Virus record (IMG/VR): IMGVR_UViG_648276647_000007 | Length of the DNA stretch: 36,541 bases | Source: a virus | Lineage: Duplodnaviria > Heunggongvirae > Uroviricota > Caudoviricetes | Reading direction: 5' to 3' (one strand) | Part shown: positions 2,249 to 36,541 of the stretch, piece by piece | Layout: every line of letters starts with the position of its first letter | How positions within the stretch are numbered: position 1 is the stretch's first letter | Position numbers and translations under genes: made by a program | Notes under the pieces: generated by a model | Told to the model about the DNA's origin: nothing | Seen by the model: the letters and a program-made list of their open reading frames with translations, nothing else | Databases searched by the model: none

Positions 2249-2258
2249 CAAAATTGAA

Positions 2259-10044: not shown

Positions 10045-13725
<3,681 letters not shown>

Positions 13726-13745
<20 letters not shown>

Positions 13746-15045: not shown

Positions 15046-15054
15046 GGGATGTTT

Positions 15055-15387
15055 ATGACGAGCAAAGAAACCTTTACCCATTACCAGCCGCTGGGCAACA
15101 GTGACCCGGCTCATACCGCAACCGCGCCCGGCGGATTGAGTGCGAAAGCGCCTGCAATGACCCCGCTGATGCTGGACACCTCCAGCCGTAAGCTGGTTGC
15201 GTGGGATGGCACCACCGACGGTGCTGCCGTTGGCATTCTTGCGGTTGCTGCTGACCAGACCAGCACCACGCTGACGTTCTACAAGTCCGGCACGTTCCGT
15301 TATGAGGATGTGCTCTGGCCGGAGGCTGCCAGCGACGAGACGAAAAAACGGACCGCGTTTGCCGGAACGGCAATCAGCATCGTTTAA
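15055..15387 (+). CDS. D: Head decoration protein D
   Basis: 110 aa from [12 protein letters not shown]...; lambda gpD. Confidence 0.9.
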
Positions 15388-15406
15388 CTTTACCCTTCAT
15401 CACTAA

Positions 15407-15429
15407 AGGCCGCCTGTGCGGCTTTTTTT
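15407..15429 (+). terminator. Weak hairpin + T7 tract between D and E (partial terminator/attenuator)
   Basis: gccgc-ctgt-gcggc stem followed by ttttttt. Confidence 0.35.
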
Positions 15430-15442
15430 ACGGGATTTTTTT

Positions 15443-16468
15443 ATGTCGATGTACACAACCGCCCAGCTGCTGGCGGCAAATGAGCAGAAATTTAAGTTTG
15501 ATCCGCTGTTTCTGCGTCTCTTTTTCCGTGAGAGCTATCCCTTCACCACGGAGAAAGTCTATCTCTCACAAATTCCGGGACTGGTAAACATGGCGCTGTA
15601 CGTTTCGCCGATTGTTTCCGGTGAGGTTATCCGTTCCCGTGGCGGCTCCACCTCTGAATTTACGCCGGGATATGTCAAGCCGAAGCATGAAGTGAATCCG
15701 CAGATGACCCTGCGTCGCCTGCCGGATGAAGATCCGCAGAATCTGGTGGACCCGGCTTACCGCCGCCGTCGCATCATCATGCAGAACATGCGTGACGAAG
15801 AGCTGGCCATTGCTCAGGTCGAAGAGATGCAGGCAGTTTCTGCCGTGCTTAAGGGCAAATACACCATGACCGGTGAAGCCTTCGATCCGGTTGAGGTGGA
15901 TATGGGCCGCAGTGAGGAGAATAACATCACGCAGTCCGGCGGCACGGAGTGGAGCAAGCGTGACAAGTCCACGTATGACCCGACCGACGATATCGAAGCC
16001 TACGCGCTGAACGCCAGCGGTGTGGTGAATATCATCGTGTTCGATCCGAAAGGCTGGGCGCTGTTCCGTTCCTTCAAAGCCGTCAAGGAGAAGCTGGATA
16101 CCCGTCGTGGCTCTAATTCCGAGCTGGAGACAGCGGTGAAAGACCTGGGTAAAGCGGTGTCCTATAAGGGGATGTATGGCGATGTGGCCATCGTCGTGTA
16201 TTCCGGACAGTACGTGGAAAACGGCGTCAAAAAGAACTTCCTGCCGGACAACACGATGGTGCTGGGGAACACTCAGGCACGCGGTCTGCGCACCTATGGC
16301 TGCATTCAGGATGCGGACGCACAGCGCGAAGGCATTAACGCCTCTGCCCGTTACCCGAAAAACTGGGTGACCACCGGCGATCCGGCGCGTGAGTTCACCA
16401 TGATTCAGTCAGCACCGCTGATGCTGCTGGCTGACCCTGATGAGTTCGTGTCCGTACAACTGGCGTAA
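15443..16468 (+). CDS. E: Major capsid protein E
   Basis: 341 aa from MSMYTTAQLLAANEQKF...; lambda gpE. Confidence 0.95.
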   Translation: MSMYTTAQLLAANEQKFKFDPLFLRLFFRESYPFTTEKVYLSQIPGLVNMALYVSPIVSGEVIRSRGGSTSEFTPGYVKPKHEVNPQMTLRRLPDEDPQNLVDPAYRRRRIIMQNMRDEELAIAQVEEMQAVSAVLKGKYTMTGEAFDPVEVDMGRSEENNITQSGGTEWSKRDKSTYDPTDDIEAYALNASGVVNIIVFDPKGWALFRSFKAVKEKLDTRRGSNSELETAVKDLGKAVSYKGMYGDVAIVVYSGQYVENGVKKNFLPDNTMVLGNTQARGLRTYGCIQDADAQREGINASARYPKNWVTTGDPAREFTMIQSAPLMLLADPDEFVSVQLA

Positions 16469-16509
16469 TCATGGCCCTTCGGGGCCATTGTTTCTCTGTG
16501 GAGGAGTCC

Positions 16510-16908
16510 ATGACGAAAGATGAACTGATTGCCCGTCTCCGCTCGCTGGGTGAACAACTGAACCGTGATGTCAGCCTGACGGGGACGAAAGAAGAACTGG
16601 CGCTCCGTGTGGCAGAGCTGGAAGAGGAGCTTGATGACACGGATGAAACTGCCGGTCAGGACACCCCTCTCAGCCGGGAAAATGTGCTGACCGGACATGA
16701 AAATGAGGTGGGATCAGCGCAGCCGGATACCGTGATTCTGGATACGTCTGAACTGGTCACGGTCGTGGCACTGGTGACGCTGCATACTGATGCACTTCAC
16801 GCCACGCGGGATGAACCTGTGGCATTTGTGCTTCCGGGAACGGCGTTCCGTGTCTCTGCCGGTGTGGCAGCCGAAATGACAGAACGTGGCCTGGCCAGAA
16901 TGCAATAA
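16510..16908 (+). CDS. DNA packaging protein FI
   Basis: 132 aa from MTKDELIARLRSLGEQLN...; lambda gpFI position and size. Confidence 0.85.
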   Translation: MTKDELIARLRSLGEQLNRDVSLTGTKEELALRVAELEEELDDTDETAGQDTPLSRENVLTGHENEVGSAQPDTVILDTSELVTVVALVTLHTDALHATRDEPVAFVLPGTAFRVSAGVAAEMTERGLARMQ

Positions 16909-16919
16909 CGGGAGGCGCT

Positions 16920-17273
16920 GTGGCTGATTTCGATAACCTGTTCGATGCTGCCATTGCCCGCGCCGATGAAACGATACGCGGGTACATGGGAACGTCAGCC
17001 ACCATGACATCCGGTGAGCAGTCCGGCGCAGTAATACGTGGTGTTTTTGATGACCCTGAAAATATCAGCTATGCCGGACAGGGCGTGCGCGTTGAAGGCT
17101 CCAGCCCGTCCCTGTTTGTCCGGACTGATGATGTGCGGCAGCTGCGGCGCGGCGACACGCTGACCATCGGTGAGGAAAACTTCTGGATAGACCGGATTTC
17201 GACGGATGATGGCGGAAGCTGTCATCTCTGGCTTGGGCGTGGCGTGCCGCCTGCCGTTAACCGTCGTCGCTGA
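16920..17273 (+). CDS. Head-tail joining protein FII
   Basis: 117 aa; lambda gpFII position and size. Confidence 0.9.
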   Translation: MADFDNLFDAAIARADETIRGYMGTSATMTSGEQSGAVIRGVFDDPENISYAGQGVRVEGSSPSLFVRTDDVRQLRRGDTLTIGEENFWIDRISTDDGGSCHLWLGRGVPPAVNRRR

Positions 17274-17284
17274 AGGGGGGATGT

Positions 17285-17863
17285 ATGGCCATAAAAGGTC
17301 TTGAGCAGGCCGTTGAAAACCTCAGCCGTATCAGCAGAACGGCGGTGCCCGGTGCCGCCGCAATGGCCATTAACCGCGTTGCTTCATCCGCGATATCGCA
17401 GTCGGCGTCACAGGTTGCCCGTGAGACAAAGGTACGCCGGAAACTGGTTAAGGAAAGGGCCAGGCTGAAAAGGGCCACGGTCAAAAATCCGCAGGCCAGA
17501 ATCAAGGTTAACCGGGGGGATTTGCCCGTAATCAGGCTGGGTAACGCGCGGGTTGTCCTGTCCCGACGCAGGCGTCGTAAAAAGGGGCAGCGTTCATCCC
17601 TGAAAGGTGGCGACAGCGTGCTTGTGGTGGGAAACCGTCGTATTCCCGGCGCGTTTATTCAGCAACTGAAAAATGGCCGGTGGCATGTCATGCAGCGTGT
17701 GGCCGGGAAAAACCGTTACCCCATTGATGTGGTGAAAATCCCGATGGCAGTGCCGCTGACCACGGCGTTTAAACAGAATATTGAGCGGATACGGCGTGAA
17801 CGTCTTCCGAAAGAGCTGGGCTATGCGCTGCAGCATCAACTGAGGATGGTAATAAAGCGATGA
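17285..17863 (+). CDS. Z: Tail completion protein Z
   Basis: 192 aa; lambda gpZ position and size. Confidence 0.9.
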   Translation: MAIKGLEQAVENLSRISRTAVPGAAAMAINRVASSAISQSASQVARETKVRRKLVKERARLKRATVKNPQARIKVNRGDLPVIRLGNARVVLSRRRRRKKGQRSSLKGGDSVLVVGNRRIPGAFIQQLKNGRWHVMQRVAGKNRYPIDVVKIPMAVPLTTAFKQNIERIRRERLPKELGYALQHQLRMVIKR

Positions 17864-18255
17864 AACATACAGAACTCCGTGCAGCCGTACTGGATGCACT
17901 GGAAAAACATGACACCGGGGCGACGCTTTTTGATGGTCGCCCCGCTGTTTTTGATGAGGAGGATTTTCCGGCAGTTGCCGTTTATCTCACCGGCGCTGAA
18001 TACACGGGCGAAGAGCTGGACAGCGATACCTGGCAGGCGGAGCTGCATATTGAAGTTTTCCTGCCTGCTCAGGTGCCGGATTCAGAGCTGGATTCGTGGA
18101 TGGAGTCCCGGATTTATCCGGTGATGAGCGATGTCCCGGCACTGTCAGATTTGATCACCAGTATGGTGGCCAGTGGCTATGACTACCGGCGCGACGATGA
18201 TGCGGGCCTGTGGAGTTCAGCCGATCTGACTTATGTCATTACCTATGAAATGTGA
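17860..18255 (+). CDS. U: Tail terminator protein U
   Basis: 131 aa; ATGA-coupled to Z; lambda gpU. Confidence 0.9.
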
Positions 18256-18262
18256 GGACGAT

Positions 18263-19003
18263 ATGCCTGTACCAAATCCAGTAATGCCGGTGAAAGGGGC
18301 CGGGACCACCCTGTGGGTTTATAAGGGGAACGGTGACCCTTATGCGAACCCGCTTTCAGACGTTGACTGGTCGCGTCTGGCTAAAGTTAAAGACCTGACG
18401 CCCGGCGAACTGAGCGCTGAGTCCTATGACGACAGCTATCTCGATGATGAAGATGCGGACTGGACTGCGACCGGGCAGGGGCAGAAATCTGCCGGAGATA
18501 CCAGCTTCACGCTGGCGTGGATGCCCGGAGAGCAGGGGCAGCAGGCGCTGCTGGCGTGGTTTAATGAAGGGGATACCCGTGCCTATAAAATCCGCTTCCC
18601 GAACGGCACGGTCGATGTGTTCCGCGGCTGGGTCAGCAGTATCGGTAAGGCGGTGACGGCGAAGGAAGTGATCACCCGCACGGTGAAAGTCACCAACGTG
18701 GGACGTCCGTCGATGGCAGAAGATCGCAGCACGGTGACGGCGACAACCGGCATGACGGTGACACCCGCCAGTGCTTCCGTAGTGAAAGGGCAGAGCACTA
18801 CGCTGACCGTGGCATTCCAGCCGGAGGGCGCAACCGACAAGAGCTTCCGTGCGGTGTCTGCGGATAAAACAAAAGCCACCGTGTCGGTCAGCGGTATGAC
18901 CATCACCGTGAACGGCGTTGCTGCAGGCAAGGTCAACATTCCGGTTGTATCCGGTAATGGTGAGTTTGCTGCGGTTGCAGAAATCACCGTCACCGCCAGT
19001 TAA
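18263..19003 (+). CDS. V: Major tail tube protein V (with C-terminal Ig-like domain)
   Basis: 246 aa from [22 protein letters not shown]...; lambda gpV. Confidence 0.9.
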
Positions 19004-19018
19004 TCCGGAGAGTCAGCG

Positions 19019-19441
19019 ATGTTCCTGAAAACCGAATCATTTGAATATAACGGCGTGACCGTCACGCTTTCTGAACTGTCAGCCCTGCAGCGTATTGAGC
19101 ATCTTGCCCTGATGAAACGGCAGGCAGAACCGGCGGGATCCGACAGCAACCGGCAGGTTACTGTGGAAGACGTCATCAGAACCGGCGCGTTTCTGGTGGC
19201 GATGTCCCTGTGGCATAACCATCCGAAGAAGACGCAGATGCCGTCCATGAATGAAGCCGTTAAACAGATTGAGCAGGAAGTGCTTACCACCTGGCCCACA
19301 GAGGCAATTTCTCATGCTGAAAACGTGGTGTACCGGCTGTCCGGTATGTATGAGTTTGTGGTGAATAATGCCCCCGAACAGGCAGAGGACGCCGGGCCTG
19401 CAGAGCCTGTTTCTGCGGGAAAGTGTTCGACGGTGAGCTGA
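19019..19441 (+). CDS. G: Tail assembly chaperone G
   Basis: 140 aa; lambda gpG. Confidence 0.9.
   Translation: MFLKTESFEYNGVTVTLSELSALQRIEHLALMKRQAEPAGSDSNRQVTVEDVIRTGAFLVAMSLWHNHPKKTQMPSMNEAVKQIEQEVLTTWPTEAISHAENVVYRLSGMYEFVVNNAPEQAEDAGPAEPVSAGKCSTVS
19417..19423 (+). promoter_or_regulatory. Programmed -1 ribosomal frameshift slippery heptamer G_GGA_AAG (G to G-T)
   Basis: Heptamer GGGAAAG sits in the G frame about 6 codons before the G stop; the -1 frame continues as the T ORF (19423-19857). This is the conserved lambda G/GT mechanism. Confidence 0.8.
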
Positions 19442-19857
19442 GTTTTGCCCTGAAACTGGCGCGTGAGATGGGGCGACCCGACTGGCGTGCCATGCTTGCC
19501 GGGATGTCATCCACGGAGTATGCCGACTGGCACCGCTTTTACAGTACCCATTATTTTCATGATGTTCTGCTGGATATGCACTTTTCCGGGCTGACGTACA
19601 CCGTGCTCAGCCTGTTTTTCAGCGATCCGGATATGCATCCGCTGGATTTCAGTCTGCTGAACCGGCGCGAGGCTGACGAAGAGCCTGAAGATGATGTGCT
19701 GATGCAGAAAGCGGCAGGGCTTGCCGGAGGTGTCCGCTTTGGCCCGGACGGGAATGAAGTTATCCCCGCTTCCCCGGATGTGGCGGACATGACGGAGGAT
19801 GACGTAATGCTGATGACAGTATCAGAAGGGATCGCAGGAGGAGTCCGGTATGGCTGA
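19423..19857 (+). CDS. T: T portion of the G-T frameshift fusion tail assembly chaperone
   Basis: -1 frame ORF of 144 aa directly following the slippery site; no independent ATG or RBS, consistent with expression only as a G-T fusion. Confidence 0.8.
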   Translation: MFDGELSFALKLAREMGRPDWRAMLAGMSSTEYADWHRFYSTHYFHDVLLDMHFSGLTYTVLSLFFSDPDMHPLDFSLLNRREADEEPEDDVLMQKAAGLAGGVRFGPDGNEVIPASPDVADMTEDDVMLMTVSEGIAGGVRYG

Positions 19858-22410
19858 ACCGGTAGGCGATCTGGTCGTTGATTTGAGTCTGGATGCGGCC
19901 AGATTTGACGAGCAGATGGCCAGAGTCAGGCGTCATTTTTCCGGTACGGAAAGTGATGCGAAAAAAACAGCGGCAGTCGTTGAACAGTCGCTGAGCCGAC
20001 AGGCGCTGGCTGCACAGAAAGCGGGGATTTCCGTCGGGCAGTATAAAGCCGCCATGCGTATGCTGCCTGCACAGTTCACCGACGTGGCCACGCAGCTTGC
20101 AGGCGGGCAAAGTCCGTGGCTGATCCTGCTGCAACAGGGGGGGCAGGTGAAGGACTCCTTCGGCGGGATGATCCCCATGTTCAGGGGGCTTGCCGGTGCG
20201 ATCACCCTGCCGATGGTGGGGGCCACCTCGCTGGCGGTGGCGACCGGTGCGCTGGCGTATGCCTGGTATCAGGGCAACTCAACCCTGTCCGATTTCAACA
20301 AAACGCTGGTCCTTTCCGGCAATCAGGCGGGTCTGACGGCAGATCGTATGCTGGTCCTGTCCAGAGCCGGGCAGGCGGCAGGGCTGACGTTTAACCAGAC
20401 CAGCGAGTCACTCAGCGCACTGGTTAAGGCGGGGGTAAGCGGTGAGGCTCAGATTGCGTCCATCAGCCAGAGTGTGGCGCGTTTCTCCTCTGCATCCGGC
20501 GTGGAGGTGGACAAGGTCGCTGAAGCCTTCGGGAAGCTGACCACAGACCCGACGTCGGGGCTGACGGCGATGGCACGCCAGTTCCATAACGTGACGGCGG
20601 AGCAGATTGCGTATGTTGCTCAGTTGCAGCGTTCCGGCGATGAAGCCGGGGCATTGCAGGCGGCGAACGAGGCCGCAACGAAAGGGTTTGATGACCAGAC
20701 CCGCCGCCTGAAAGAGAACATGGGCACGCTGGAGACCTGGGCAGACAGGACTGCGCGGGCATTCAAATCCATGTGGGATGCGTGCTGGATATTGGTCGTC
20801 CTGATACCGCGCAGGAGATGCTGATTAAGGCAGAGGCTGCGTTTAAGAAAGCAGACGACATCTGGAATCTGCGCAAGGATGATTATTTTGTTAACGATGA
20901 AGCGCGGGCGCGTTACTGGGATGATCGTGAAAAGGCCCGTCTTGCGCTTGAAGCCGCCCGAAAGAAGGCTGAACAGCAGAGTCAACAGGACAAAAATGCG
21001 CAGCAGCAGAGCGATACCGAAGCGTCACGGCTGAAATATACCGAAGAGGCGCAGAAGGCTTACGAACGGCTGCAGACGCCGCTGGAGAAATATGCCGCCC
21101 GTCAGGAAGAACTGAATAAGGCCCTGAAAGACGGAAAAATCCTGCAGGCAGATTACAACACGCTGATGGCGGCAGCGAAAAAGGACTATGAAACGACACT
21201 GAAAAAGCCGAAGCAGTCCGGCGTGAAGGTGTCTGCGGGCGATCGTCAGGAAGACAGTGCTCATGCTGCCCTGCTGACGCTTCAGGCTGAACTCCGGACG
21301 CTGGAGAAGCATGCCGGAGCAAATGAGAAAATCAGCCAGCAGCGCCGGGATTTGTGGAAGGCGGAGAGTCAGTTCGCGGTACTGGAGGAGGCGGCGCAAC
21401 GTCGCCAGCTGTCTGTACAGGAGAAATCCCTGCTGGCGCATAAAGATGAGACGCTGGAGTACAAACGCCAGCTGGCTGCACTTGGCGACAAGGTTACGTA
21501 TCAGGAGCGCCTGAACGCGCTGGCGCAGCAGGCGGATAAATTCGCACAGCAGCAACGGGCAAAACGGGCCGCCATTGATGCGAAAAGCCGGGGGCTGACT
21601 GACCGGCAGGCAGAACGGGAAGCCACGGAACAGCGCCTGAAGGAACAGTATGGCGATAATCCGCTGGCGCTGAATAACGTCATGTCAGAGCAGAAAAAGA
21701 CCTGGGCGGCTGAAGACCAGCTTCGCGGGAACTGGATGGCAGGCCTGAAGTCCGGCTGGAGTGAGTGGGAAGAGAGCGCCACGGACAGTATGTCGCAGGT
21801 AAAAAGTGCAGCCACGCAGACCTTTGATGGTATTGCACAGAATATGGCGGCGATGCTGACCGGCAGTGAGCAGAACTGGCGCAGCTTCACCCGTTCCGTG
21901 CTGTCCATGATGACAGAAATTCTGCTTAAGCAGGCAATGGTGGGGATTGTCGGGAGTATCGGCAGCGCCATTGGCGGGGCTGTTGGTGGCGGCGCATCCG
22001 CGTCAGGCGGTACAGCCATTCAGGCCGCTGCGGCGAAATTCCATTTTGCAACCGGAGGATTTACGGGAACCGGCGGCAAATATGAGCCAGCGGGGATTGT
22101 TCACCGTGGTGAGTTTGTCTTCACGAAGGAGGCAACCAGCCGGATTGGCGTGGGGAATCTTTACCGGCTGATGCGCGGCTATGCCACCGGCGGTTATGTC
22201 GGTACACCGGGCAGCATGGCAGACAGCCGGTCGCAGGCGTCCGGGACGTTTGAGCAGAATAACCATGTGGTGATTAACAACGACGGCACGAACGGGCAGA
22301 TAGGTCCGGCTGCTCTGAAGGCGGTGTATGACATGGCCCGCAAGGGTGCCCGTGATGAAATTCAGACACAGATGCGTGATGGTGGCCTGTTCTCCGGAGG
22401 TGGACGATGA
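19850..22410 (+). pseudogene. H: Tail tape-measure protein H, interrupted by a 1-nt frameshift near 20781-20784
   Basis: Two ORFs (19850-20824 and 20773-22410, different frames) together span the length and position of lambda H (853 aa). The upstream frame reads ...FKSMWDA then CWILVVLIPRRRC-stop; the other frame continues GCVLDIGRPDTAQEML..., so restoring one base after gatgcg would rejoin them. Confidence 0.8.
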
Positions 22411-24808: not shown

Positions 24809-28210
<3,402 letters not shown>

Positions 28211-28277: not shown

Positions 28278-28877
28278 ATGCGTAAATTATGTGCTGTTAT
28301 TCTGTCCGCAGTAGTCTTGCTGGTTGCCGCTGGTACGCCAGCGAGCGCAGCAGAGCATCAGTCCACACTAAGCGCCGGGTATCTTCAGACCCATACTGAT
28401 ATGCCAGGCAGTGATGACCTGAAGGGCATTAACGTGAAATACCGTTATGAATTTACGGACACGCTGGGGCTGGTGACGTCATTCAGTTATGCCAATGCCA
28501 AAGATGAGCAAAAAACGCATTACAGCGATACCCGCTGGCATGAAGATTCCGTGCGTAACCGCTGGTTCAGCATGATGGCGGGGCCATCAGTACGCGTGAA
28601 TGAATGGTTCAGTGCTTATGCGATGGCGGGTATGGCTTACAGCCGTGTGTCGACCTTCTCCGGGGATTATCTCCGCGTAACTGACAACAAGGGGAAAACG
28701 CACGATGTGCTGACCGGAAGTGATGACGGTCGCCACAGCAACACGTCTCTGGCGTGGGGGGCTGGCGTGCAGTTTAACCCGACCGAATCCGTGGCCATTG
28801 ACCTTGCTTATGAAGGTTCCGGCAGTGGTGACTGGCGCACTGACGGTTTCATCGTGGGTGCCGGTTATAAATTCTGA
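28278..28877 (+). CDS. lom: Lom outer-membrane protein (Ail/Lom/OmpX family)
   Basis: 199 aa with signal peptide and C-terminal ...GSGDWRTDGFIVGAGYKF beta-barrel terminus, as in lambda Lom. Confidence 0.85.
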   Translation: MRKLCAVILSAVVLLVAAGTPASAAEHQSTLSAGYLQTHTDMPGSDDLKGINVKYRYEFTDTLGLVTSFSYANAKDEQKTHYSDTRWHEDSVRNRWFSMMAGPSVRVNEWFSAYAMAGMAYSRVSTFSGDYLRVTDNKGKTHDVLTGSDDGRHSNTSLAWGAGVQFNPTESVAIDLAYEGSGSGDWRTDGFIVGAGYKF

Positions 28878-28935: not shown

Positions 28936-30693
28936 GTGGATATGGTAGCAGTAAAAATCTCAGGTGTGCTGAAAGATGGTGCGGGAAAACCAATACAGAA
29001 CTGCACTATTCAACTGAAGGCAAAGCGTAACAGCACCACGGTACTGGTGAACACGGTGGCATCTGAAAATCCTGATGAAGCCGGGCGTTACAGTATGGAT
29101 GTTGAGTATGGCCAGTACAGCGTCACCCTGCTGGTTGAAGGTTTTCCGCCTTCACATGCCGGGACCATTACCGTCTATGAAGGTTCCAGACCAGGTACGC
29201 TGAATGATTTTCTCGGTGCCATGACGGAAGATGATGTCATGCCGGAGGCATTGCGTCGTTTTGAGGAAATGGTGGAAGAAGCGGCACGCAACGCCGAAGC
29301 CGCCTCTCAGAGCGCAGCGGCGGCAAAGAAATCCGAAACTGCATCGGCAGCAAGCCAGACAGCAGCTAAAGCAAGTGAAGACGCAGCCAGAGAGTATGCA
29401 AGTCAGGCAGCAGAGCCGTATAAATATGTCTTACAGCCACTGCCTGATGTGTGGATACCGTTTAACGATTCACTGGATATGATTACGGGTTTTTCGCCAT
29501 CTTATAAAAAGATAGTTATTGGTGACGATGAAATAACAATGCCAGGCGACAAGATTGTTAAGTTTAAACGTGCTTCAACAGCAACGTATATTAATAAGTC
29601 CGGCCAACTCAAGCTTGCTGAAGTTGACGAACCGCGATTTGAGCGCGATGGCTTATTGATTGAAGGACAGAGGACAAATTATCTGAGGAACTCAAATAAA
29701 CCAGACTCATGGACTGTTCATTCCGCACTGAATAAAACATTTGGCACTGATAAACAGGGGTTCAATTATGCCACGGTGACACCCACGGAAAGTATAGTGG
29801 GAACAACAGGTGGCTATACTGTGCATGGTGTGGTTGCAGCAGACAGATTCCCGCTGGCAAGTGGTGAATGTTTCACTTTTTCGTGCCGGGTTAAAGGCGC
29901 TAAAGCACGATGCAGGTTAAGAGTTTCAGTTATTATTGGTGGAACAGATACCTTCTCTGCTGACTCTTATCTTGATCTGGATACCCGGATCGCAACAGTA
30001 AGCGGTAATACATCCCTTATAACAGCCAAAGCTGAACAACAGGGCGAGTGGACCTACTATGAGGCCACTTATACAGCTAATACGGACATTGATACCGTTA
30101 ACTGTGCTTTTTATATGACAAATAAAATAAGTAATGAGACATTCTATGATGACTCAACATTAACCATGACGACGCCGCAAATTGAACTGGGCAATACGGC
30201 ATCGTCATTTATTGTAACTACAATGCCAACAACACGCGCAAGTGATGTAGTTACTATCCCATCGCAGAATAACCTGTCAACACGGCCTTTTACGGTATTG
30301 TGCGAAGTAAGCAGGAACTGGAGTACACCGCCCAATGTTGCGCCAAGGATATTTGATGTTGGAGGGCACAGTATTGATGATAATTATTTATCGCTGGGGT
30401 TTGTTGCAACAGGAAAGATAAGCGCCAACGTAGGAATGGTTCAGCCACAAATTGCCTCAGATGGAGAAAGGTTCATTGTGGGTGTGAGAGCTAAATCTGA
30501 TTTATCAGTAAATGCAATATGCAATGGTAATTATACAACAAACCTTAATGGTAAAATATTTGGAGTTACAGCAACATCGTACCGGTTTGGTGGGCAGACC
30601 GCAGCAGGAACGCGTCATTTGTTTGGACACATCAGAAATTTCAGAGTCTGGTTTAAAGAATTAAATGACAGGCAAATCAAGGAGGCAGTATGA
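28936..30693 (+). CDS. stf: Side tail fibre protein with lambda Stf-like N-terminus and divergent C-terminal receptor-binding domain (possibly LamG/concanavalin-like)
   Basis: First ~150 aa (MAVKISGVLKDGAGKPIQNCTIQLKAKRNSTT...SMDVEYGQYSV...) resemble lambda Stf; the rest lacks the long Ala/Ser-rich shaft and ends in a G.IRNFRVW...L.DRQI-like motif. Confidence 0.7.
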   Translation: MDMVAVKISGVLKDGAGKPIQNCTIQLKAKRNSTTVLVNTVASENPDEAGRYSMDVEYGQYSVTLLVEGFPPSHAGTITVYEGSRPGTLNDFLGAMTEDDVMPEALRRFEEMVEEAARNAEAASQSAAAAKKSETASAASQTAAKASEDAAREYASQAAEPYKYVLQPLPDVWIPFNDSLDMITGFSPSYKKIVIGDDEITMPGDKIVKFKRASTATYINKSGQLKLAEVDEPRFERDGLLIEGQRTNYLRNSNKPDSWTVHSALNKTFGTDKQGFNYATVTPTESIVGTTGGYTVHGVVAADRFPLASGECFTFSCRVKGAKARCRLRVSVIIGGTDTFSADSYLDLDTRIATVSGNTSLITAKAEQQGEWTYYEATYTANTDIDTVNCAFYMTNKISNETFYDDSTLTMTTPQIELGNTASSFIVTTMPTTRASDVVTIPSQNNLSTRPFTVLCEVSRNWSTPPNVAPRIFDVGGHSIDDNYLSLGFVATGKISANVGMVQPQIASDGERFIVGVRAKSDLSVNAICNGNYTTNLNGKIFGVTATSYRFGGQTAAGTRHLFGHIRNFRVWFKELNDRQIKEAV

Positions 30694-30968
30694 AAGATTT
30701 AACTTTGAAATTTCCTGGTAACAGAGAGTTTAAATCCTTCCTGTCATCTCTTGACTGGGAGGAGGATGAAGACCTCCAGAATAAACTGTTAGTCGATGAA
30801 ATTGGTTTCACCTACACAGAAACAGGGGTAACAGAAGAGGGAGAACCTGTCTGTGTCCGGAATGACGGTTATTTTGTCAACATTCGCATTCTTGATGACT
30901 TGTTTGATGTTTCTGTATTCTCTGATTATGTCGTGGAGCTGGAAACACCGCTTCGGGAATGGAGCTGA
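30690..30968 (+). CDS. Hypothetical acidic protein (92 aa), translationally coupled to the tail fibre gene
   Basis: ATGA overlap with the stf stop; sits where a tail fibre assembly gene would be expected but is smaller than typical Tfa proteins. Confidence 0.45.
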   Translation: MKDLTLKFPGNREFKSFLSSLDWEEDEDLQNKLLVDEIGFTYTETGVTEEGEPVCVRNDGYFVNIRILDDLFDVSVFSDYVVELETPLREWS

Positions 30969-30980
30969 AAGGAGGAAATA

Positions 30981-31274
30981 ATGGATATAAGCCCCTTACT
31001 TCATGCACTTTGTGCTGTGGCTGCGCAGATACTGGTTGGTCTTTTTACCGGAAACTGGGCTTACGGAGCGATAGCCGGTTGTACGTTCTTCATTGCGCGT
31101 GAACATACCCAGGCAGAATATCGCTGGATTGAAATGTTCGGGCATGGCAAGCGAATGAATATGCCGTGGTGGGGCGGTTTTGATCCGCGAGCTTGGGATG
31201 TGGCAAGCCTGATGGATTTTGCTGTGCCGGTGGTGGCGTGTCTGCTGGTCTGGCTGTTGGTTAATCGTGGGTGA
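30981..31274 (+). CDS. Hypothetical small membrane protein (97 aa, two predicted TM helices)
   Basis: Strong RBS (gaaaggaggaaataATG); hydrophobic N- and C-terminal segments flanking a W/R-rich loop. Confidence 0.45.
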   Translation: MDISPLLHALCAVAAQILVGLFTGNWAYGAIAGCTFFIAREHTQAEYRWIEMFGHGKRMNMPWWGGFDPRAWDVASLMDFAVPVVACLLVWLLVNRG

Positions 31275-31365
31275 AAAAAGGTGAGCTGTATATGCAACGG
31301 AGGAAGAAACCCCGTTGCTGGAAGCCAGGAAAAAGTATCGGGTGTTGCTGTCCTCGGATGTTGTG

Positions 31366-32223
31366 CTAATTGGGTGATAACAGATCCTGTGTATGGGAGT
31401 TTCCCTTTTTGCGTGCGTTGATGCTGGTAACGGCAAACGTCATGATGAACAAAACCGCGAATAAGACGACAATCGTCGGAGCTGGTGCGCTGTCGATAAA
31501 AAAGGACAACCAGACACCAGTCATTGACACTATTACCGATATGCCAGTCGCCAGTAGGAGCGCAATATGAAAGCGTTGTGTCAGGAGTACCGCAATGGCG
31601 CCAGGCGCAATGAGCAGAGAAATGGAGAGAATGATACCTACCGCTTTCAGCGTCGCCACAATGGTCAGAGAGACCATGCACAGCAGCCCATAATGCAGCC
31701 ATCTCGTATGCAAACCGCTTACCTGCGCCTGTTGATAATCAAAGCTGAACAGCAAAAAATCCCGCCATTTTACGCTAATAACAAGTGTAACCAGCCCGGC
31801 AATAATCATCGTCTGGATTATATCGCCGATGGTTATCCCGAGCATGTCGCCGAAAAGAATATGGTCAAGATGTACGTCTGGTTTGACTGCAATATACAAG
31901 ATCAGACCTGCGGCAAACATGCCAGAAAAAACAATCCCCATCACTGTATCTTGCTTGATTCGGCTGTTGTCTTTCAGGTATCCCGTCGCCACCGCACAGA
32001 ATACTCCGGCGACGAATGCCCCTGTAGCCAAAGGTAACCCCAGAATCCAGGCAAGCACGATGCCAGGAAAAACCGCATGACTCATCGCGTCACCCATCAG
32101 TGCCCAACCTTTCAGGACCAGAAAGACCGACAGCAGCGCACAGGGTATGGAAACTACCAGTGAAATCAGCAGTGCGTGACTCATAAAGGTGAACTGCAGT
32201 GGCTCCAGTAATAATGCCATCAT
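31366..32223 (-). CDS. sitD: Mn/Fe ABC transporter permease SitD (ABC-3 family)
   Basis: 285 aa polytopic membrane protein, last gene of a four-gene minus-strand operon with overlapping start/stop codons; paralogous to the adjacent permease. Confidence 0.8.
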   Translation of the reverse strand: MMALLLEPLQFTFMSHALLISLVVSIPCALLSVFLVLKGWALMGDAMSHAVFPGIVLAWILGLPLATGAFVAGVFCAVATGYLKDNSRIKQDTVMGIVFSGMFAAGLILYIAVKPDVHLDHILFGDMLGITIGDIIQTMIIAGLVTLVISVKWRDFLLFSFDYQQAQVSGLHTRWLHYGLLCMVSLTIVATLKAVGIILSISLLIAPGAIAVLLTQRFHIALLLATGISVIVSMTGVWLSFFIDSAPAPTIVVLFAVLFIMTFAVTSINARKKGNSHTQDLLSPN

Positions 32224-33077
32224 GAGCGATCCTCCAGCGCCTTATGCGCACGCCGACGATTTGCCAAAAGCCCATGGGTGGGCGCAAAGACAAATGCTAA
32301 AAGAAACAGCAGTGTCTGCGCCACCACGATGATTCCACCTGTCGCGCCGTCCAGAAAGTAACTGACCCACGCGCCGAGGAAACTGGTTACACTGCCAATA
32401 GTTACAGCAATCATGAGCAGGCGGGGAAAACGATCGGTTAACAACCATGCTGTTGCACCGGGAGTCACCACCAGACAGATCACCAGAAAGGCACCAACCG
32501 TTTGCAGCGCCGCAACGGTCGAAACCGACAGCAGGGTGAAGAAGAGGAGTTTTAATCTGCCCGGATGCAATCCAATAGCACGGGCGTGATTCTCGTCGAA
32601 AAAGGTCACCATAAGATCTTTCCATTTGAAAAAAAGCACGATGATCGAGAGAATGCCAATGATAGTGAGTTGCAGGATATCCGCCGGATCGATTGCCAGA
32701 ATATTGCCCAGGACGATGGTCTGAATGTTCACAGATGTCGGGTTCAATGACACCATAAACAGCCCCAGGCCAAAAAAGGACGAGAAGATCAGACCGATGA
32801 TGGCATCTTCTTTTAAGCGGGTGCGTTGGTTAAGAAACAGCATGCTGCCCGCAGCCAGTCCGCCGGAAAAGAAGGCTCCCAGAGAAAACGGAAGCCCCAG
32901 CATATATGCCCCCGCAACACCCGGGACAATAGAGTGCGACAACGCATCGCCAATCAGCGACCAGCCTTTTAGCATCAGATAGCATGACAGGAAAGCGCAG
33001 AGACCGCCGACCATCGCCGAGACCCACATCGCATTGAGCATATATTCATAGCTGAAGGGTTCCAGTAGCACGTTCAT
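32220..33077 (-). CDS. sitC: Mn/Fe ABC transporter permease SitC (ABC-3 family)
   Basis: 285 aa polytopic membrane protein; operon position. Confidence 0.8.
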
Positions 33078-33901
33078 CTTTCTTCCCTCTGCACCGCTGA
33101 CGGTCGATGAGCCACAAAAGGGCGTTCATCGTCAGTAATAATGCTTTCTTCCGAGCCGTTAAGTGTGACATGGCGCAGTACGCCGCTAAAAGCCAGCTCT
33201 AGGTTCTCGGCTGTAAAAGTGGTGTCTGTCGGCCCGCTTGCCAGGACGGTGCCTTTGACCATGACCGTATAATCGCAAAATGTCGTGACGGATCCGAGAT
33301 TGTGTGTTGAGACAAGCATCGTTTTGCCTTCCGCGCGTAACTCCCTCAACAGGCTGATGATTTTGGCTTCGGTTTTCACATCAACGCCAGTAAAAGGTTC
33401 ATCCAGCAGGATCACATCACCCTGCTGTGCAATCGCTCTCGCCAGAAAGACGCGTTTCTTTTGTCCACCGGAAAGCTCGCCGATTTGTCGATGGCGAAAA
33501 TTCACCATATCGACACGTTCCAGCGCATCGGTGACAATTTGACGATCCCTCTTTTTGGCGATACGCAACATACCCATATGCCCATAGCGGCCCATCATCA
33601 CCACATCTTCCACCAGTACAGGAAATGACCAGTCAACATCTTCTGACTGAGGGACGTAGGCAACCAGGTTTTTCTGTAACGCCTGTCGCGTGGGAATACC
33701 CAGAACAGATATCTTTCCGCTGGTCAGACGCACAAATCCCATAATCGCTTTAAACAACGTCGATTTTCCGGAACCGTTTACCCCAACCAGAGCGGCAATA
33801 GATCCACTTGGTACTGTGAAGGATGCATCGCGCAGTGCTGTGTGCCCGTTACGCCAGGTGACAGTAACATCATTAACGACAATGCCTGCAGATTGCATCA
33901 T
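33074..33901 (-). CDS. sitB: Mn/Fe ABC transporter ATP-binding protein SitB
   Basis: 275 aa; Walker [13 protein letters not shown] signature LSGGQ, Walker B ILLDEP. Confidence 0.85.
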
Positions 33902-34815
33902 TATTTCTCCCTTTTCCCAGCTTTAATTCCCTGTACCAGCGTACTGGTAGTAACCTTAAGAAGGTCGATATACGTCGGTACCGGGCCGTTTTCTGTGCTC
34001 AGGGAATCGACATAGAGCACACCGCCGTAGTGTGCGCCGGTTTCACGCGCAACCTGACGCGCTGGTTTATCGGAAATCGTACTCTCGCTAAAGACTGCCG
34101 GGATATGATTTTTCTTAACTATATCAACAACCTTACGTACCTGCTGCGGTGTTCCTTGTTGATCGGCATTAATCGGCCACAGATAAAGCTCTTTTAGCCC
34201 CAAATCGCGTGCGAGATAAGAAAAAGCCCCTTCACTGGTGACCATCCATCGCTGATTCTCAGGGAGTTCCGTAATCTGCTTACGCAGGGGGGCAAGGATT
34301 TGGGTAATCTTGGCTTTATAAGTATCGGCATTGCGTTGGTAGGTTTGTGCATTTGCCGGATCGTATTTTATCAACGCATCACGAATATTATCGACGTAAA
34401 TCAGAGCATTATCTGGCGACATCCATGCATGGGGGTTAGGTTTGCCCTCATAGGGTCCTTCGGTGATCCCTACAGGCGTCACACCCGAAGAGACAATTAC
34501 TTCTGGAACCCCATTGAGATGCTGGTAAAAGCGTTGGAACCACAATTCCAGATTCATACCATTGGCAAGAATCAGTTGTGCCCCCTGCGCACGTTTAATA
34601 TCGCCAGGGGTAGGCTGATACTCATGAATTTCTGCACCAGGCTTGGTTATGGATGAGACTTCTGCAGCATCTCCCGCCACGTTTTTGGCCATATCCGCGA
34701 TGATGGTAAATGTTGTAATGACCTTGAATTTTTCAGTTGCACTTGCCTGAAATGCGATCGAGCAGGTGAGTGCGAGCCCCCCCAAGAGCATGGTTACTTT
34801 TTTTATCGAGTGCAT
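33901..34815 (-). CDS. sitA: Periplasmic Mn/Fe-binding protein SitA (TroA/cluster-9 substrate-binding protein)
   Basis: 304 aa with signal peptide; first gene of the operon. Sit/Yfe/Mnt family by motif recall; exact orthologue name unverified. Confidence 0.8.
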
Positions 34816-34847
34816 AATTTAGTACCTATAGTGAGCAAAATTAGAAC

Positions 34848-34869
34848 AAACATAGCAACGGCTATGTTT
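34848..34869 (-). promoter_or_regulatory. Candidate MntR operator (palindrome aaacatagc-aacg-gctatgttt) upstream of sitA
   Basis: Perfect 9-bp inverted repeat matching the enterobacterial MntR-box consensus as I remember it, about 35-55 bp upstream of the sitA start. Confidence 0.5.
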
Positions 34870-34888
34870 TATAGCACAGCCTATACAA

Positions 34889-34909
34889 AATGAAAATGAT
34901 TATCATTAG
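34889..34909 (-). promoter_or_regulatory. Candidate Fur box (aaaatgattatcattagc) upstream of sitA
   Basis: 13 of 14 match to the AATGATAATCATT core of the Fur consensus GATAATGATAATCATTATC. Confidence 0.5.
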
Positions 34910-35513
34910 CAGCTTTGAGGCCCAAAACAGGGATTAGGTTGTTTCCTGCTGGCGACGCGTTATTGAGGAAAAAAGTAAGGCAGCTAGTAGGCTTTGAAAT
35001 AACGTTTTGCGGTTGGCTGATGCAATTTCGAGAGTGCATGTATTGAATGATTTCTAGCCGTTACTGATTTTCGTATTTTTTGTATGGGAGGATTTGCACC
35101 TCCCCCCACCGAGCCTCCATGACTTTACTCCACTGTCTCTAGGGCTGCTGTGTGCCAGGAGCGGAAGCAGGGGGGCCAGAGACTCCTTAAAAGTTGATAG
35201 CTCGTTTTGCAGGGAGACTTACACGGTAAGCGTTATTCCGAAGAGCTTAAAATTGAAGCAGTCAAACGGGTTGTTGAGCGTGTTTATGCGCTGCCATCTG
35301 ATTAATCGACGGAAGCAGTTCCGTTTGGTCTATGATGCAGTTGTCCGGCAGGCGCTCTGTGACGCAAAAGAACGATAGGAGTAGCATTGAAGTGAACGAG
35401 GTTATGCTTGTCTTATATTATCCTCTATTTTAAAAACATCAGCTGGTTGTGTAAGAGTTTTTATTGTTTTATCTTGTTGACTTTGCTTTTATGAAAACAG
35501 AGTGATTGATACA

Positions 35514-36041
35514 ATGAAAACCTTAAGTGGGAAAGAGTTTAGGAAATTATTTAATCGTTATGAGACAGGATTCTATCTAAGTGAGTTTGAATACTTAAAG
35601 GACTTTGATCCTTTGTTTCCTGAATGCGTAGGGAAAGAATTAAAGTTGGGTTATAAACGAAAAGTTGATGTATGGTGCGAAGAGGATGCTGCGCTATATG
35701 CAGAATTTATAGCTACAAAAGAAAGGCTGAAAAGAGGCCGGTTAATCCTAAAAATAAACCAAGTGTGGTCGCGTGTATATCCTGCTTATATTTATGCAAT
35801 TGAAGAAAGAATAAATGTCAGGGCAAAGGGGAGAGAGTCATTTAAGTATGAAACTGTGCAAGAAAAACAATGTAAACTTTCCATAATGTTAGATGGTCTG
35901 AAAGACCTTGAATGTGAAATAGCTATGATTTCAAGTGAGTTTGAAATTGAAAAACACTCTATGCACTATTTTTATATGATTTTTGATATTGAACGCTATA
36001 TAAATGACTGCAGTTACTTTGTTTTTTCTGGGCTTTGTTGA
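35514..36041 (+). CDS. Hypothetical protein in an AT-rich island; 3' end apparently replaced by the IS end
   Basis: ORF 35502-36041 (first ATG at 35514). Region is visibly AT-rich relative to the rest of the window. The last codons and the TGA stop (36039-36041) lie inside the IS terminal repeat starting at 36031. Confidence 0.4.
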   Translation: MKTLSGKEFRKLFNRYETGFYLSEFEYLKDFDPLFPECVGKELKLGYKRKVDVWCEEDAALYAEFIATKERLKRGRLILKINQVWSRVYPAYIYAIEERINVRAKGRESFKYETVQEKQCKLSIMLDGLKDLECEIAMISSEFEIEKHSMHYFYMIFDIERYINDCSYFVFSGLC

Positions 36042-36541
36042 ATAAATCGAACTTTTGCTGAGTTGAAGGATCAGATCACGCATCTTCCCGACAACGCAGA
36101 CCATTCCGTGGCAAAGCAAAAGTTCAAAATCACCAACTGGTCCACCTACAACAAAGCCCTCATCAACCGTGGCTCCATAACTTTCTGGCTGGACGATGAA
36201 GCTATTCAGGCCTGGTATGAGTCGGCAACGCCTTCATCACGGGGAAGACCTCAGCGCTATTCTGATCTCGCCATCACCACCGTTCTGGTCATTAAACGCG
36301 TGTTCAGGCTGACCCTGCGGGCTGCACAGGGTTTTATTGATTCCATTTTTACACTGATGAATGTTCCGTTGCGCTGCCCGGATTACACCAGTGTCAGTAA
36401 GCGCGCAAAGTCGGTTAATGTCAGTTTCAAAACGTTCACCCGGGGTGAAATCGCGCATCTGGTGATTGATTCCACCGGGCTGAAGGTCTCTGGTGAAGGC
36501 GAATGGAAAGTCAAAAAACACGGACAAAGAACGCCGTCGTA
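36031..36541 (+). mobile_element. IS903-group (IS5 family) insertion sequence, left end and 5' part; continues beyond the window
   Basis: Terminal sequence GGCTTTGTTGAATAAATCGAACTTTTGCTGAGTTGAAGGATCAGATCACGCATCTTCCCGACAACGCAGACC... matches the IS903/Tn903 end as I remember it. Confidence 0.75.
36107..36541 (+). CDS. IS903-group transposase, N-terminal 145 codons (3'-partial at window edge)
   Basis: Frame open from GTG 36107 to the window end, translating to VAKQKFKITNWSTYNKALINRGSITFWLDDEAIQAWYESATPSSRGRPQRYSDLAITTVLVIKRVFRLTLRAAQGF...; absent from the ORF track because no stop is reached. Confidence 0.75.

What the first reader, a model, noticed from the sequence alone, without database searches (positions are those of the whole stretch)
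31366..34910. sitABCD-type Mn/Fe uptake operon carried as prophage cargo, with MntR-like and Fur-like boxes
Just past the tail-fibre module (the b-region, the usual moron and attP location) lies a complete minus-strand four-gene ABC transporter: periplasmic binding protein, ATPase and two permeases of the Sit/Yfe/Mnt type. Its promoter region has a perfect MntR-like palindrome (34848-34869) and a Fur-like box (34889-34909). Sit systems are recognised fitness and virulence factors in pathogenic E. coli, Shigella and Salmonella, and are reported on phage-like islands. This window shows the physical linkage to an almost intact lambda tail module.
Basis: partly seen in the sequence, partly recalled or inferred. 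Interest (0 to 1): 0.6.

Follow-up and report, generated by a model that had tools for sequence, protein, structure and literature searches.

The report
Phage-borne sitABCD manganese/iron uptake operon
This is the well-known sitABCD manganese/iron importer with its Fur and MntR operators, carried as cargo in a phage-21-like lambdoid prophage of E. coli; the arrangement is common and already published, so the finding is correct but ordinary.

Summary
Four intact, translationally coupled minus-strand genes (sitA 33901-34815, sitB 33074-33901, sitC 32220-33077, sitD 31366-32223) encode a binding protein, an ATPase and two permeases. They are 100% identical in DNA to annotated sitABCD of E. coli. 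SitA keeps the His-His-Glu-Asp metal site of Yersinia YfeA, so this is the Mn/Fe class, not the Zn class. The promoter has a 17/19 Fur box (34892-34910) and a perfect MntR palindrome (34848-34869). Its arms are identical to the K-12 mntH operator. Both motifs are unique in the window and conserved upstream of sitA orthologues across Enterobacterales. The operon lies between the side-tail-fibre module and the expected attP, exactly as in classic phage 21 and 26 other deposited phages. Sit-less relatives share the left flank, so it is dispensable cargo. None of this is new. Mathieu et al. 2020 found sitABCD, with a Fur box, on 70% of infant-gut lambda phages. Misson et al. 2023 showed it transcribed from prophage Perceval. 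2299 of 5426 complete E. coli genomes carry it. Verdict: already known, low interest.

The parts
33901..34815 (-). sitA: periplasmic metal-binding protein (304 aa). It has a Sec signal peptide ending ...FQASA and the metal ligands H64, H129, E195 and D270.
   Evidence: ORF. Pfam PF01297 at 289 bits. YfeA at E 1.6e-125 with a gap-free alignment. Ligand residues checked against YfeA site 1 as given in PMC5505154. One substitution (I173 vs T) relative to WP_000555630.1.
33074..33901 (-). sitB: ABC ATPase (275 aa). Walker A is GVNGSGKS at residue 40, the signature LSGGQ at 143 and Walker B VILLDE at 163.
   Evidence: NCBIfam equivalog NF011630 'manganese/iron ABC transporter ATP-binding protein', 592.8 bits against a cut-off of 393. 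Motifs.
32220..33077 (-). sitC: ABC-3 family permease (285 aa).
   Evidence: Pfam PF00950 at 278.8 bits. Annotated sitC in the identical Rb-23 locus.
31366..32223 (-). sitD: ABC-3 family permease (285 aa).
   Evidence: Pfam PF00950 at 257.8 bits. Annotated sitD in the identical Rb-23 locus.
34848..34869 (.). MntR operator. It is a perfect palindrome, AAACATAGC-cgtt-GCTATGTTT, lying 32 nt upstream of the sitA ATG and downstream of the predicted -10.
   Evidence: 0 mismatches and unique in the window. The arms are identical to the operator in the K-12 mntH promoter. It matches the enterobacterial consensus AACATAGCnnnnGCTATGTT quoted in PMC1698941. The core ATAGC-N4-GCTAT is conserved at the same position in 21 Enterobacterales sitA promoters.
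34871..34884 (.). Second, degenerate MntR-type palindrome, ATAGG-ctgt-GCTAT, centred 19 bp upstream of the first. Its right arm overlaps the predicted -10.
   Evidence: These are the only two matches within 1 mismatch to ATAGC-N4-GCTAT in the 36.5-kb window, and they are adjacent. This upstream palindrome is perfect in several other genera: Phytobacter, Shimwellia, Enterobacter and Buttiauxella (alignment A1). Its left arm varies among E. coli-type alleles.
34892..34910 (-). Fur box GCTAATGATAATCATTTTC (17/19), overlapping the predicted -35.
   Evidence: Unique in the window, with 0 expected. The block TGATAATnATTTTCATTT is conserved in alignment A1. It is retained in the phage 21, ColV-plasmid and SPF_0923 alleles. 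A Fur box upstream of phage-borne sit was reported in PMC6969025.
34868..34896 (-). Predicted sigma-70 promoter: -35 TTTTCA (34896-34891), 17-bp spacer, extended -10 TGcTATAAA (34876-34868).
   Evidence: This is inference from reading the sequence and from invariant columns in A1 (G71-T75, T51-T52). The consensus scanner did not list it, because it requires a T at position 6 of the -10 hexamer. No transcription start was mapped here.
31339..35012 (-). The sit cassette: the ~3.66 kb shared by lambdoid phages, ColV-type plasmids and another prophage context. It runs from about 20 bp past the sitD stop to about 190 bp upstream of sitA.
   Evidence: Pairwise BLAST boundaries are 31339-35012 against pAPEC-O2-ColV and 31346-35003 against SPF_0923. 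The sit-less phage PhiR49_1_star shares the left flank only up to 31350.
28942..31274 (+). Phage backbone to the left of the cassette. It comprises the side tail fibre (to 30693) and two small ORFs (30690-30968, and 30981-31274, a membrane protein).
   Evidence: Pfam PF08400 prophage tail fibre N-terminal domain. The same three genes precede sitD in phage 21 and in Rb-23.
35514..36030 (+). Phage backbone to the right: a hypothetical b-region gene (252 aa in phage 21). Here it is cut at about 36030 by an IS5-family element, before attP would be reached.
   Evidence: Homology to Rb-23 and phage 21 ends at 36030. The remainder is 97-98% identical to loci annotated as IS5 family transposase. In phage 21, attP lies about 2.1 kb beyond sitA.

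Best explanation
The region is the sitABCD operon. It encodes a cluster A-I ABC importer for Mn2+ and Fe2+: the periplasmic binding protein SitA, the ATPase SitB and the heterodimeric permease SitC/SitD.

How it is carried. The operon sits as a self-contained ~3.66-kb moron cassette in the b region of a phage-21-like lambdoid prophage. It lies between the side-tail-fibre genes and the expected attP, and it is transcribed convergently to the phage late operon.

How it is regulated. The operon brings its own promoter.
- Fe2+-Fur is predicted to bind a box over the -35.
- Mn2+-MntR is predicted to bind a perfect palindrome just downstream of the -10. A second, degenerate palindrome overlaps the -10.
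- The lysogen would therefore express the transporter only when iron and manganese are scarce, independently of phage repressor control.

What is shown and what is inferred.
- Shown here: gene identity, intactness, metal-site class, the operator sequences with their rarity and conservation, the position in the phage genome, and dispensability for the phage.
- Taken from the literature: actual Mn/Fe transport, repression by Fur and MntR, and transcription in lysogens.
- Inferred: the promoter hexamers.
For: Identity:
- 100% DNA identity over 4.5 kb to annotated sitABCD.
- SitB exceeds the Mn/Fe equivalog cut-off.
- PF01297 plus ABC_tran plus two ABC-3 domains.
- YfeA at E 1.6e-125 against ZnuA at ~1e-11.
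- His-His-Glu-Asp ligands present.
- Overlapping stop/start codons, and full lengths equal to the reference proteins.

Operators:
- Both are unique in the window and far beyond chance.
- The MntR arms are identical to the K-12 mntH operator, which also has a Fur-like box just upstream.
- In 21 Enterobacterales orthologue promoters the best MntR match has 0-5 mismatches at 21-60 nt from the start codon (one at 144 nt), against 7-9 in background tiles.
- The palindrome is absent from alpha-proteobacterial and other non-enterobacterial orthologues.

Cargo status:
- The same gene order occurs in phage 21, with annotated attP and int downstream.
- 27 deposited phage genomes hold the operon.
- Sit-less phages share the left flank up to 31350.
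- The same cassette is on ~966 plasmids with the same ends.

Literature:
- sitABCD on 70% of infant-gut lambda phages, with a Fur box (PMC6969025).
- The sit genes of prophage Perceval are transcribed 4-13 fold above prophage background in the lysogen (PMC9928086).
- MntR and Fur repress sitABCD, and Sit transports Mn2+ and Fe2+ (review PMC3852070).
Against: - No expression, binding or transport was measured for this copy.
- The consensus promoter scan did not list a promoter upstream of sitA. The proposed -35/-10 is my own reading.
- The upstream palindrome is degenerate in E. coli-type alleles and may be vestigial.
- The right end of the prophage (attR) is not in the window, because an IS5 element interrupts it at about 36030. 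'Inside the prophage' therefore rests on synteny with phage 21 and with Rb-23.
- The primary papers on sit regulation (Ikeda 2005; Runyen-Janecky 2006) could not be read, so I cite them only through a review.
Confidence: 0.95

Rival explanations
1. The operon is a zinc importer of the ZnuABC/AztABCD/AdcA class rather than a Mn/Fe importer.
For: Pfam names the SitA domain 'ZnuA'. The NCBIfam zinc models AztC, AztA and AztB give sizeable sub-threshold scores of 185-197 bits. The review notes that Salmonella Sit can also carry Zn2+, at about 30-fold lower affinity.
Against: All zinc models are below their cut-offs: AztC 197 vs 350, ZnuA 64 vs 268, ZnuB 78 vs 284. SitB passes the Mn/Fe equivalog. 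Solved Zn binders score 100 or more orders of magnitude worse than YfeA and MntC. The third metal ligand is Glu195, as in YfeA Glu207. From my own knowledge, not tested here, Zn-class proteins have a His at this position. The promoter carries Fur and MntR sites. I did not scan for a Zur box.
Confidence: 0.01
2. sitABCD is not phage cargo but neighbouring chromosomal or island DNA that merely abuts a prophage end.
For: The window ends in an IS5 element before any attR, so the prophage boundary is not visible here. The same cassette also exists on plasmids.
Against: In phage 21, Perceval, the Lambda_ev phages and the ECOR-derived PhiR phages, the operon lies inside the sequenced phage genome between stf and attP/int. 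These are packaged and, for several, plaque-purified. In Rb-23 the icd' attachment-site remnant lies beyond the gene to the right of sitA. The window is 99.0% identical to phage 21 from 30582 to 36030.
Confidence: 0.02
3. The Fur and MntR motifs are inherited look-alikes that no longer regulate this phage-borne copy, which would then be constitutive or silent.
For: No binding or expression data exist for this copy. The upstream palindrome is degenerate. In LF82 grown in rich LB, the sit genes were still 4-13 fold above prophage background.
Against: The downstream palindrome and the Fur box are invariant across phage, plasmid and chromosomal E. coli alleles, although the flanking promoter positions vary. 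They are also conserved across genera at the same spacing. The palindrome arms equal the mntH operator sequence in K-12. The review states that MntR represses SitABCD in Salmonella and Shigella.
Confidence: 0.04

Closest known systems
sitABCD of Escherichia phage 21 (OL657228) and related Lambda-like phages (Perceval, Lambda_ev*, 1H12, PhiR47_2)
   Same: The four genes, promoter and flanking small ORFs are the same, and so is the position between the side tail fibre and attP. Identity is 99.6-99.9% over window 31000-35500 and 99.0% over 30582-36030 against phage 21.
   Different: This copy sits in a prophage whose tape-measure gene has a 1-bp deletion. Its b region is cut by an IS5 element at about 36030. 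SitA carries one substitution, I173. Early, immunity and integration modules differ among these phages (one search shows only partial homology to phage 21 outside the tail and b regions).
Plasmid-borne sitABCD of ColV/ColBM virulence plasmids (e.g. pAPEC-O2-ColV, NC_007675)
   Same: The cassette has the same ends (window 31339-35012) at 97.3% identity. The MntR palindrome is identical and the Fur box nearly identical.
   Different: The vehicle is a conjugative IncF plasmid, with a Phd/RelE toxin-antitoxin pair nearby instead of phage genes. The sequence shows about 3% divergence and SitA differs at 4 residues.
Salmonella SPI-1 SitABCD and Yersinia pestis YfeABCD
   Same: Orthologous four-gene Mn/Fe ABC importers. 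SitA is 74% identical to the S. arizonae protein. It aligns without gaps to YfeA and keeps all four site-1 ligands. The S. arizonae promoter has the same layout of Fur box followed by MntR-type palindromes.
   Different: These are carried on a pathogenicity island or the chromosome, not on a phage. The review notes that Yersinia lacks MntR control.
E. coli K-12 mntH promoter (dual Fur / MntR control)
   Same: A Fur-like box is followed by AAACATAGC-N4-GCTATGTTT, with arms identical to the sit operator, just upstream of the start codon.
   Different: It controls an unrelated NRAMP-type transporter. I saw a single palindrome in the 350 nt I read, against two tandem ones in sit promoters. The distance to the ATG is 12 nt against 32 nt here.

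Membership tests
SitABCD/YfeABCD cluster A-I Mn/Fe ABC importer | Four-gene operon in the order binding protein, ATPase, permease, permease, all intact. | tested here: met
   ORFs of 304, 275, 285 and 285 aa with overlapping stop/start codons. Lengths equal the annotated SitA-D.
SitABCD/YfeABCD cluster A-I Mn/Fe ABC importer | The ATPase scores above the curated cut-off of the Mn/Fe equivalog model. | tested here: met
   NF011630 at 592.8 bits against a cut-off of 393, full length 1-274/274.
SitABCD/YfeABCD cluster A-I Mn/Fe ABC importer | The binding protein has the His-His-Glu-Asp canonical metal site (YfeA His76/His141/Glu207/Asp282). | tested here: met
   A gap-free alignment to YfeA with an offset of 12. 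H64, H129, E195 and D270 are present. Site definition from PMC5505154.
SitABCD/YfeABCD cluster A-I Mn/Fe ABC importer | Two ABC-3 (PF00950) permease subunits. | tested here: met
   278.8 and 257.8 bits.
SitABCD/YfeABCD cluster A-I Mn/Fe ABC importer | Transports Mn2+ and Fe2+. | not testable with these tools
   Literature only: APEC, Shigella and Salmonella Sit transport both metals (review PMC3852070).
ZnuABC-type zinc importer (considered and rejected) | Scores above the ZnuA/ZnuB/AztC cut-offs, with the closest solved relatives being Zn binders. | tested here: not met
   ZnuA 64 vs 268 bits, ZnuB 78 vs 284, AztC 197 vs 350. PDB ZnuA at E ~1e-11 against YfeA at 1.6e-125.
Fur regulon member | A 19-bp Fur box close to consensus in the promoter. 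| tested here: met
   17/19 at 34892-34910, unique in the window, 0 matches in 100 shuffles. Conserved block in A1.
Fur regulon member | Iron- and Fur-dependent repression. | not testable with these tools
   Reported for sit in Salmonella and Shigella according to PMC3852070. The Fur box of phage-borne sit is noted in PMC6969025.
Enterobacterial MntR regulon member | The palindrome AACATAGC-N4-GCTATGTT in the promoter. | tested here: met
   A perfect match at 34848-34869. Consensus from PMC1698941. Identical arms in K-12 mntH. Conserved in orthologue promoters.
Enterobacterial MntR regulon member | Mn2+- and MntR-dependent repression. | not testable with these tools
   Literature only, via a review. 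The primary paper is not held.
Lambdoid-phage moron (lysogenic-conversion cargo) | Located within the phage genome, outside the essential modules. | tested here: met
   Between stf and attP in phage 21. The window is collinear with it from 30582 to 36030.
Lambdoid-phage moron (lysogenic-conversion cargo) | Dispensable: close relatives lack it at the same place. | tested here: met
   PhiR49_1_star, IdasGreatGrand and ev243 share the tail-fibre and small-ORF flank up to 31259-31350 but have no sit.
Lambdoid-phage moron (lysogenic-conversion cargo) | Has its own promoter and is expressed from the repressed prophage. | tested here: inconclusive
   The operator-bearing promoter is predicted by eye and was not listed by the scanner. 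Expression in a lysogen is shown for Perceval in PMC9928086, not for this copy.

The most novel reading that the evidence does not exclude
The most novel reading left open has two parts.

1. The sit promoter may be governed by two tandem MntR operators centred 19 bp apart that bracket the -10. This layout is conserved across Enterobacterales, with the stronger site alternating between the upstream and downstream position in different genera.

2. The ~3.66-kb cassette may move between phage b regions, ColV plasmids and other prophages by a defined but undescribed recombination route. It has fixed ends at about 31339-31350 and 35003-12. In one Salmonella prophage record the flanking 130-bp segment lies on the opposite side of the cassette.

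I could not check the primary regulation papers, so the tandem operator may already be described.
Probability: 0.12. Interest if true: 0.25.

Novelty: already known. Interest (0 to 1): 0.08.

Why it matters
Sit is a recognised fitness and virulence factor of ExPEC, APEC, AIEC and Shigella. Its carriage on active temperate phages means a single lysogenisation can transfer metal-scavenging capacity that is wired directly into the host's Fur and MntR circuits. That point has already been made in print (PMC6969025, PMC9928086), and the phage 21 genome annotation lists the genes. This window adds one more example, in a prophage that is probably decaying, given the tape-measure frameshift and the IS5 insertion. 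It is useful as a clean annotation, not as a discovery.

Tried and rejected
- **Zn-class transporter.** Rejected on curated cut-offs, PDB ranking and metal ligands.
- **Automatic promoter scan.** It found no sigma-70 site upstream of sitA at its thresholds, and counts over the whole region equal the shuffled expectation. I therefore give a hand-read promoter and mark it as inference.
- **Rfam scan of 30500-36541.** The only match is a sub-threshold one to the candidate sRNA family IS009 at 31272-31370 (51.7 bits against a gathering score of 117, with about 100 model positions missing). I read it as conserved phage-backbone intergenic DNA, not as part of sit.
- **Repeat search around the cassette.** No flanking direct or inverted repeats and no target duplication were found, so there is no evidence of transposition.
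- **Terminator after sitD.** A hairpin at about 31294-31318 exists, but the U-run is 17 nt away. Folding z-scores are only about -2.2, and the scanner found none. This is left open.
- **Primary papers on sit, mntH and MntR regulation** (PMC545731, PMC135093, PMC3194919). They are not held, so a review was used instead.
- **Source strain.** L1PEag1 matches the first 5.6 kb of the window at 100%, but its tail region is differently deleted, so it is not the source. Rb-23 is the closest overall at 99.9%.


Full report
**Observation.**
The four minus-strand ORFs are present exactly as described: sitA 33901-34815, sitB 33074-33901, sitC 32220-33077 and sitD 31366-32223. Stop and start codons overlap at all three junctions, as expected for a translationally coupled operon. 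Reading the minus strand upstream of sitA gives this layout:
- the Fur box GCTAATGATAATCATTTTC,
- then ATTTTGT,
- then ATAGGCTGTGCTAT,
- then AAAACATAGCCGTTGCTATGTTT,
- then 32 nt to the ATG.

The Fur consensus matches 17 of 19 positions at 34892-34910. This is the only site in the 36.5-kb window within three mismatches, and none of 100 shuffles gave any. The MntR palindrome AAACATAGC-N4-GCTATGTTT matches perfectly at 34848-34869 and is likewise unique, with 0.03 expected.

**What it is.**
Window 31000-35500 is 100% identical to loci annotated sitA, sitB, sitC and sitD in several complete E. coli genomes. 2299 of 5426 complete genomes hold at least 80% of it.
- SitB passes the curated NCBIfam equivalog for the manganese/iron ABC ATPase (592.8 bits, cut-off 393).
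- All zinc-system models fall far below their cut-offs.
- Pfam gives ZnuA-fold SBP, ABC_tran and two ABC-3 permeases.
- Against solved structures, SitA is closest to Yersinia pestis YfeA (E 1.6e-125, no gaps), then cyanobacterial MntC and a Salmonella SitA fragment. E. coli ZnuA is at about 1e-11.
- YfeA's canonical site is His76/His141/Glu207/Asp282 (PMC5505154). With the constant offset of 12 these are SitA His64, His129, Glu195 and Asp270, and all are present.
- SitB has Walker A, LSGGQ and Walker B motifs.

**Operators.**
The enterobacterial MntR consensus is AACATAGCnnnnGCTATGTT (PMC1698941). The K-12 mntH promoter, fetched here, reads ...tttgataatcattctc...AAACATAGCaaagGCTATGTTT...ATG. 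That is a Fur-like box followed by a palindrome whose arms are identical to those upstream of sitA.

I then fetched sitA orthologues from 80 species and examined their upstream regions.
- In all 21 Enterobacterales loci the best MntR match has 0-5 mismatches. It lies 21-60 nt from the start codon, with one at 144 nt.
- A Fur-like box often lies about 73-86 nt upstream.
- Across all 300-nt tiles of the same loci the typical best match has 7-9 mismatches.
- In alpha-proteobacterial, Halomonas, Oceanimonas and Photobacterium orthologues the palindrome is absent (7-9 mismatches). This fits the different manganese regulators described for those groups.

An alignment of eleven promoters (A1) shows three conserved blocks:
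- TGATAATnATTTTCATTT (Fur),
- a first ATAGC-N4-GCTAT,
- a second ATAGC-N4-GCTAT.

In the window the upstream one is ATAGG-ctgt-GCTAT (34871-34884), with one core mismatch. The only two matches within 1 mismatch of the core in the whole window are these adjacent sites. In Enterobacter and Buttiauxella the upstream site is the near-perfect one and the downstream one is weaker. Among E. coli-type alleles the upstream left arm drifts, while the downstream palindrome and the Fur box stay fixed.

**Mechanism.**
By inspection, a plausible promoter is -35 TTTTCA (34896-34891), a 17-bp spacer, and an extended -10 TGcTATAAA (34876-34868). The corresponding columns are invariant or nearly so in A1. The automatic scan did not list it because its rule demands a T at the last -10 position, so this step is inference.

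On that reading, Fur sits on the -35 and MntR sits on the -10 and start region. This gives dual repression by iron and manganese, as for mntH. According to the review PMC3852070:
- MntR with Mn2+ represses mntH and sitABCD (citing Patzer and Hantke 2001, Ikeda 2005 and Runyen-Janecky 2006);
- Sit carries both Mn2+ and Fe2+ in APEC, Shigella and Salmonella.

I could not read the primary papers.

**Context.**
The window is a lambdoid prophage. In order it contains:
- Q (5177-5866),
- lysis genes,
- Bor/Iss,
- a TonB C-terminal-domain protein,
- terminase, portal and head genes,
- tail genes,
- J (24812-28210),
- Lom,
- the side tail fibre (to 30693),
- two small ORFs,
- then sitDCBA.

The classic phage 21 (OL657228, sewage isolate of the 1950s) has the same order. 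Its annotated attP and int lie about 2.1 kb beyond sitA, and the window is 99.0% identical to it from 30582 to 36030.

Twenty-seven deposited phage genomes hold at least 80% of the region. They include Perceval, the Lambda_ev series and ECOR-derived PhiR phages. Sit-less relatives (PhiR49_1_star, IdasGreatGrand, ev243) share the left flank up to 31259-31350 and then diverge.

The same DNA, from 31339 to 35012, is on pAPEC-O2-ColV, and about 966 plasmid records hold at least 80% of the query. The unit is thus a ~3.66-kb cassette with its own promoter that appears in several vehicles. No flanking repeats were found.

**Comparison with what is known.**
- Mathieu et al. 2020 (PMC6969025) reported sitABCD on 70% of the Lambda phages cultured from infant-gut E. 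coli. They noted a Fur box upstream in all cases.
- Misson et al. 2023 (PMC9928086) list SitA-D as morons of the active prophage Perceval, transcribed 4-13 fold above prophage background.
- The phage 21 genome announcement (PMC9119081) mentions multigene virulence-factor morons, and the deposited record annotates the four Sit genes.

The finding is therefore correct in observation and interpretation, but already known. The only small additions here are the second palindrome, the cross-genus footprint and the cassette ends.

**State of this copy.**
Relative to both Rb-23 copies, the window lacks one G after 20781 in a G run of the tape-measure gene. This splits the gene into ORFs 19850-20824 and 20773-22410. 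It may be a real frameshift or a homopolymer sequencing error. The b-region gene to the right of sit is cut at about 36030 by an IS5-family element. The sit genes themselves are intact, with a single SitA substitution.

**Verdict.**
This is an ordinary, well-documented phage-borne sitABCD operon with Fur and MntR operators.

Noticed in passing
window 20773-20824 (deletion after 20781): The tail tape-measure gene is split into two overlapping ORFs (19850-20824 and 20773-22410). The cause is a missing G in a G run, relative to both prophage copies of E. coli Rb-23. Either the prophage is tail-defective or this is a homopolymer sequencing error.
   Followed up: partly
window ~36030-36541: An IS5-family element, 97-98% identical to loci annotated as IS5 family transposase, interrupts the hypothetical b-region gene that is 252 aa in phage 21 and Rb-23. 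The window ends inside the IS, so attR is not visible.
   Followed up: partly
window 31272-31370 (+): A sub-threshold Rfam match to the candidate sRNA family IS009 (51.7 bits against a gathering score of 117, E 6e-10, with about 100 model positions missing). It lies in the intergenic DNA between the small membrane-protein ORF and the sitD stop. The same sequence occurs in sit-less phages, so it belongs to the phage backbone.
   Followed up: partly
L002 ~10090-20800 (E. coli Rb-23, second sit prophage at the icd site): A ~10.7-kb element is inserted in the prophage's major capsid gene. It encodes an integrase, an Icd-like protein, a primase, SSB, its own major capsid and decoration proteins, and a TIR-domain protein. 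It looks like a phage satellite living inside a prophage structural gene. It is absent from the window.
   Followed up: no
L087 6033-6346 vs window 31293-31350 and 34995-35126: In the Salmonella prophage record SPF_0923, the ~130 bp that lie to the right of the sit cassette in the window are found to its left, next to the homologue of the left flank. This suggests either an 'empty-site' backbone followed by the cassette or a former flanking repeat. How the cassette moves remains unexplained.
   Followed up: partly
window 164-3328: Upstream of ybcN-rusA-Q lie an inverse-autotransporter (intimin/invasin-like) ORF with repeated Big_1/Invasin_D3 domains (164-2248, +) and an alpha/beta hydrolase of the BD-FAE family (2285-3328, -). 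They appear to be further cargo in the prophage's early-right region.
   Followed up: partly
window 7446-7787 (-), 8166-8546 (+), 28278-28877 (+): Other morons of the same prophage are Bor/Iss lipoprotein, a TonB C-terminal-domain protein and Lom. The TonB fragment is also listed as an expressed moron of Perceval and is annotated in phage 21. Its co-occurrence with an iron/manganese importer is noteworthy but was not examined.
   Followed up: no
window 28942-30693: The side tail fibre is a continuous 583-aa ORF, shorter than in phage 21 (686 aa) and about 270 bp shorter than in PhiR47_2. NCBI's pipeline annotates the identical sequence in Rb-23 as two partial pseudogenes, so the fibre may be an internally deleted variant.
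   Followed up: no
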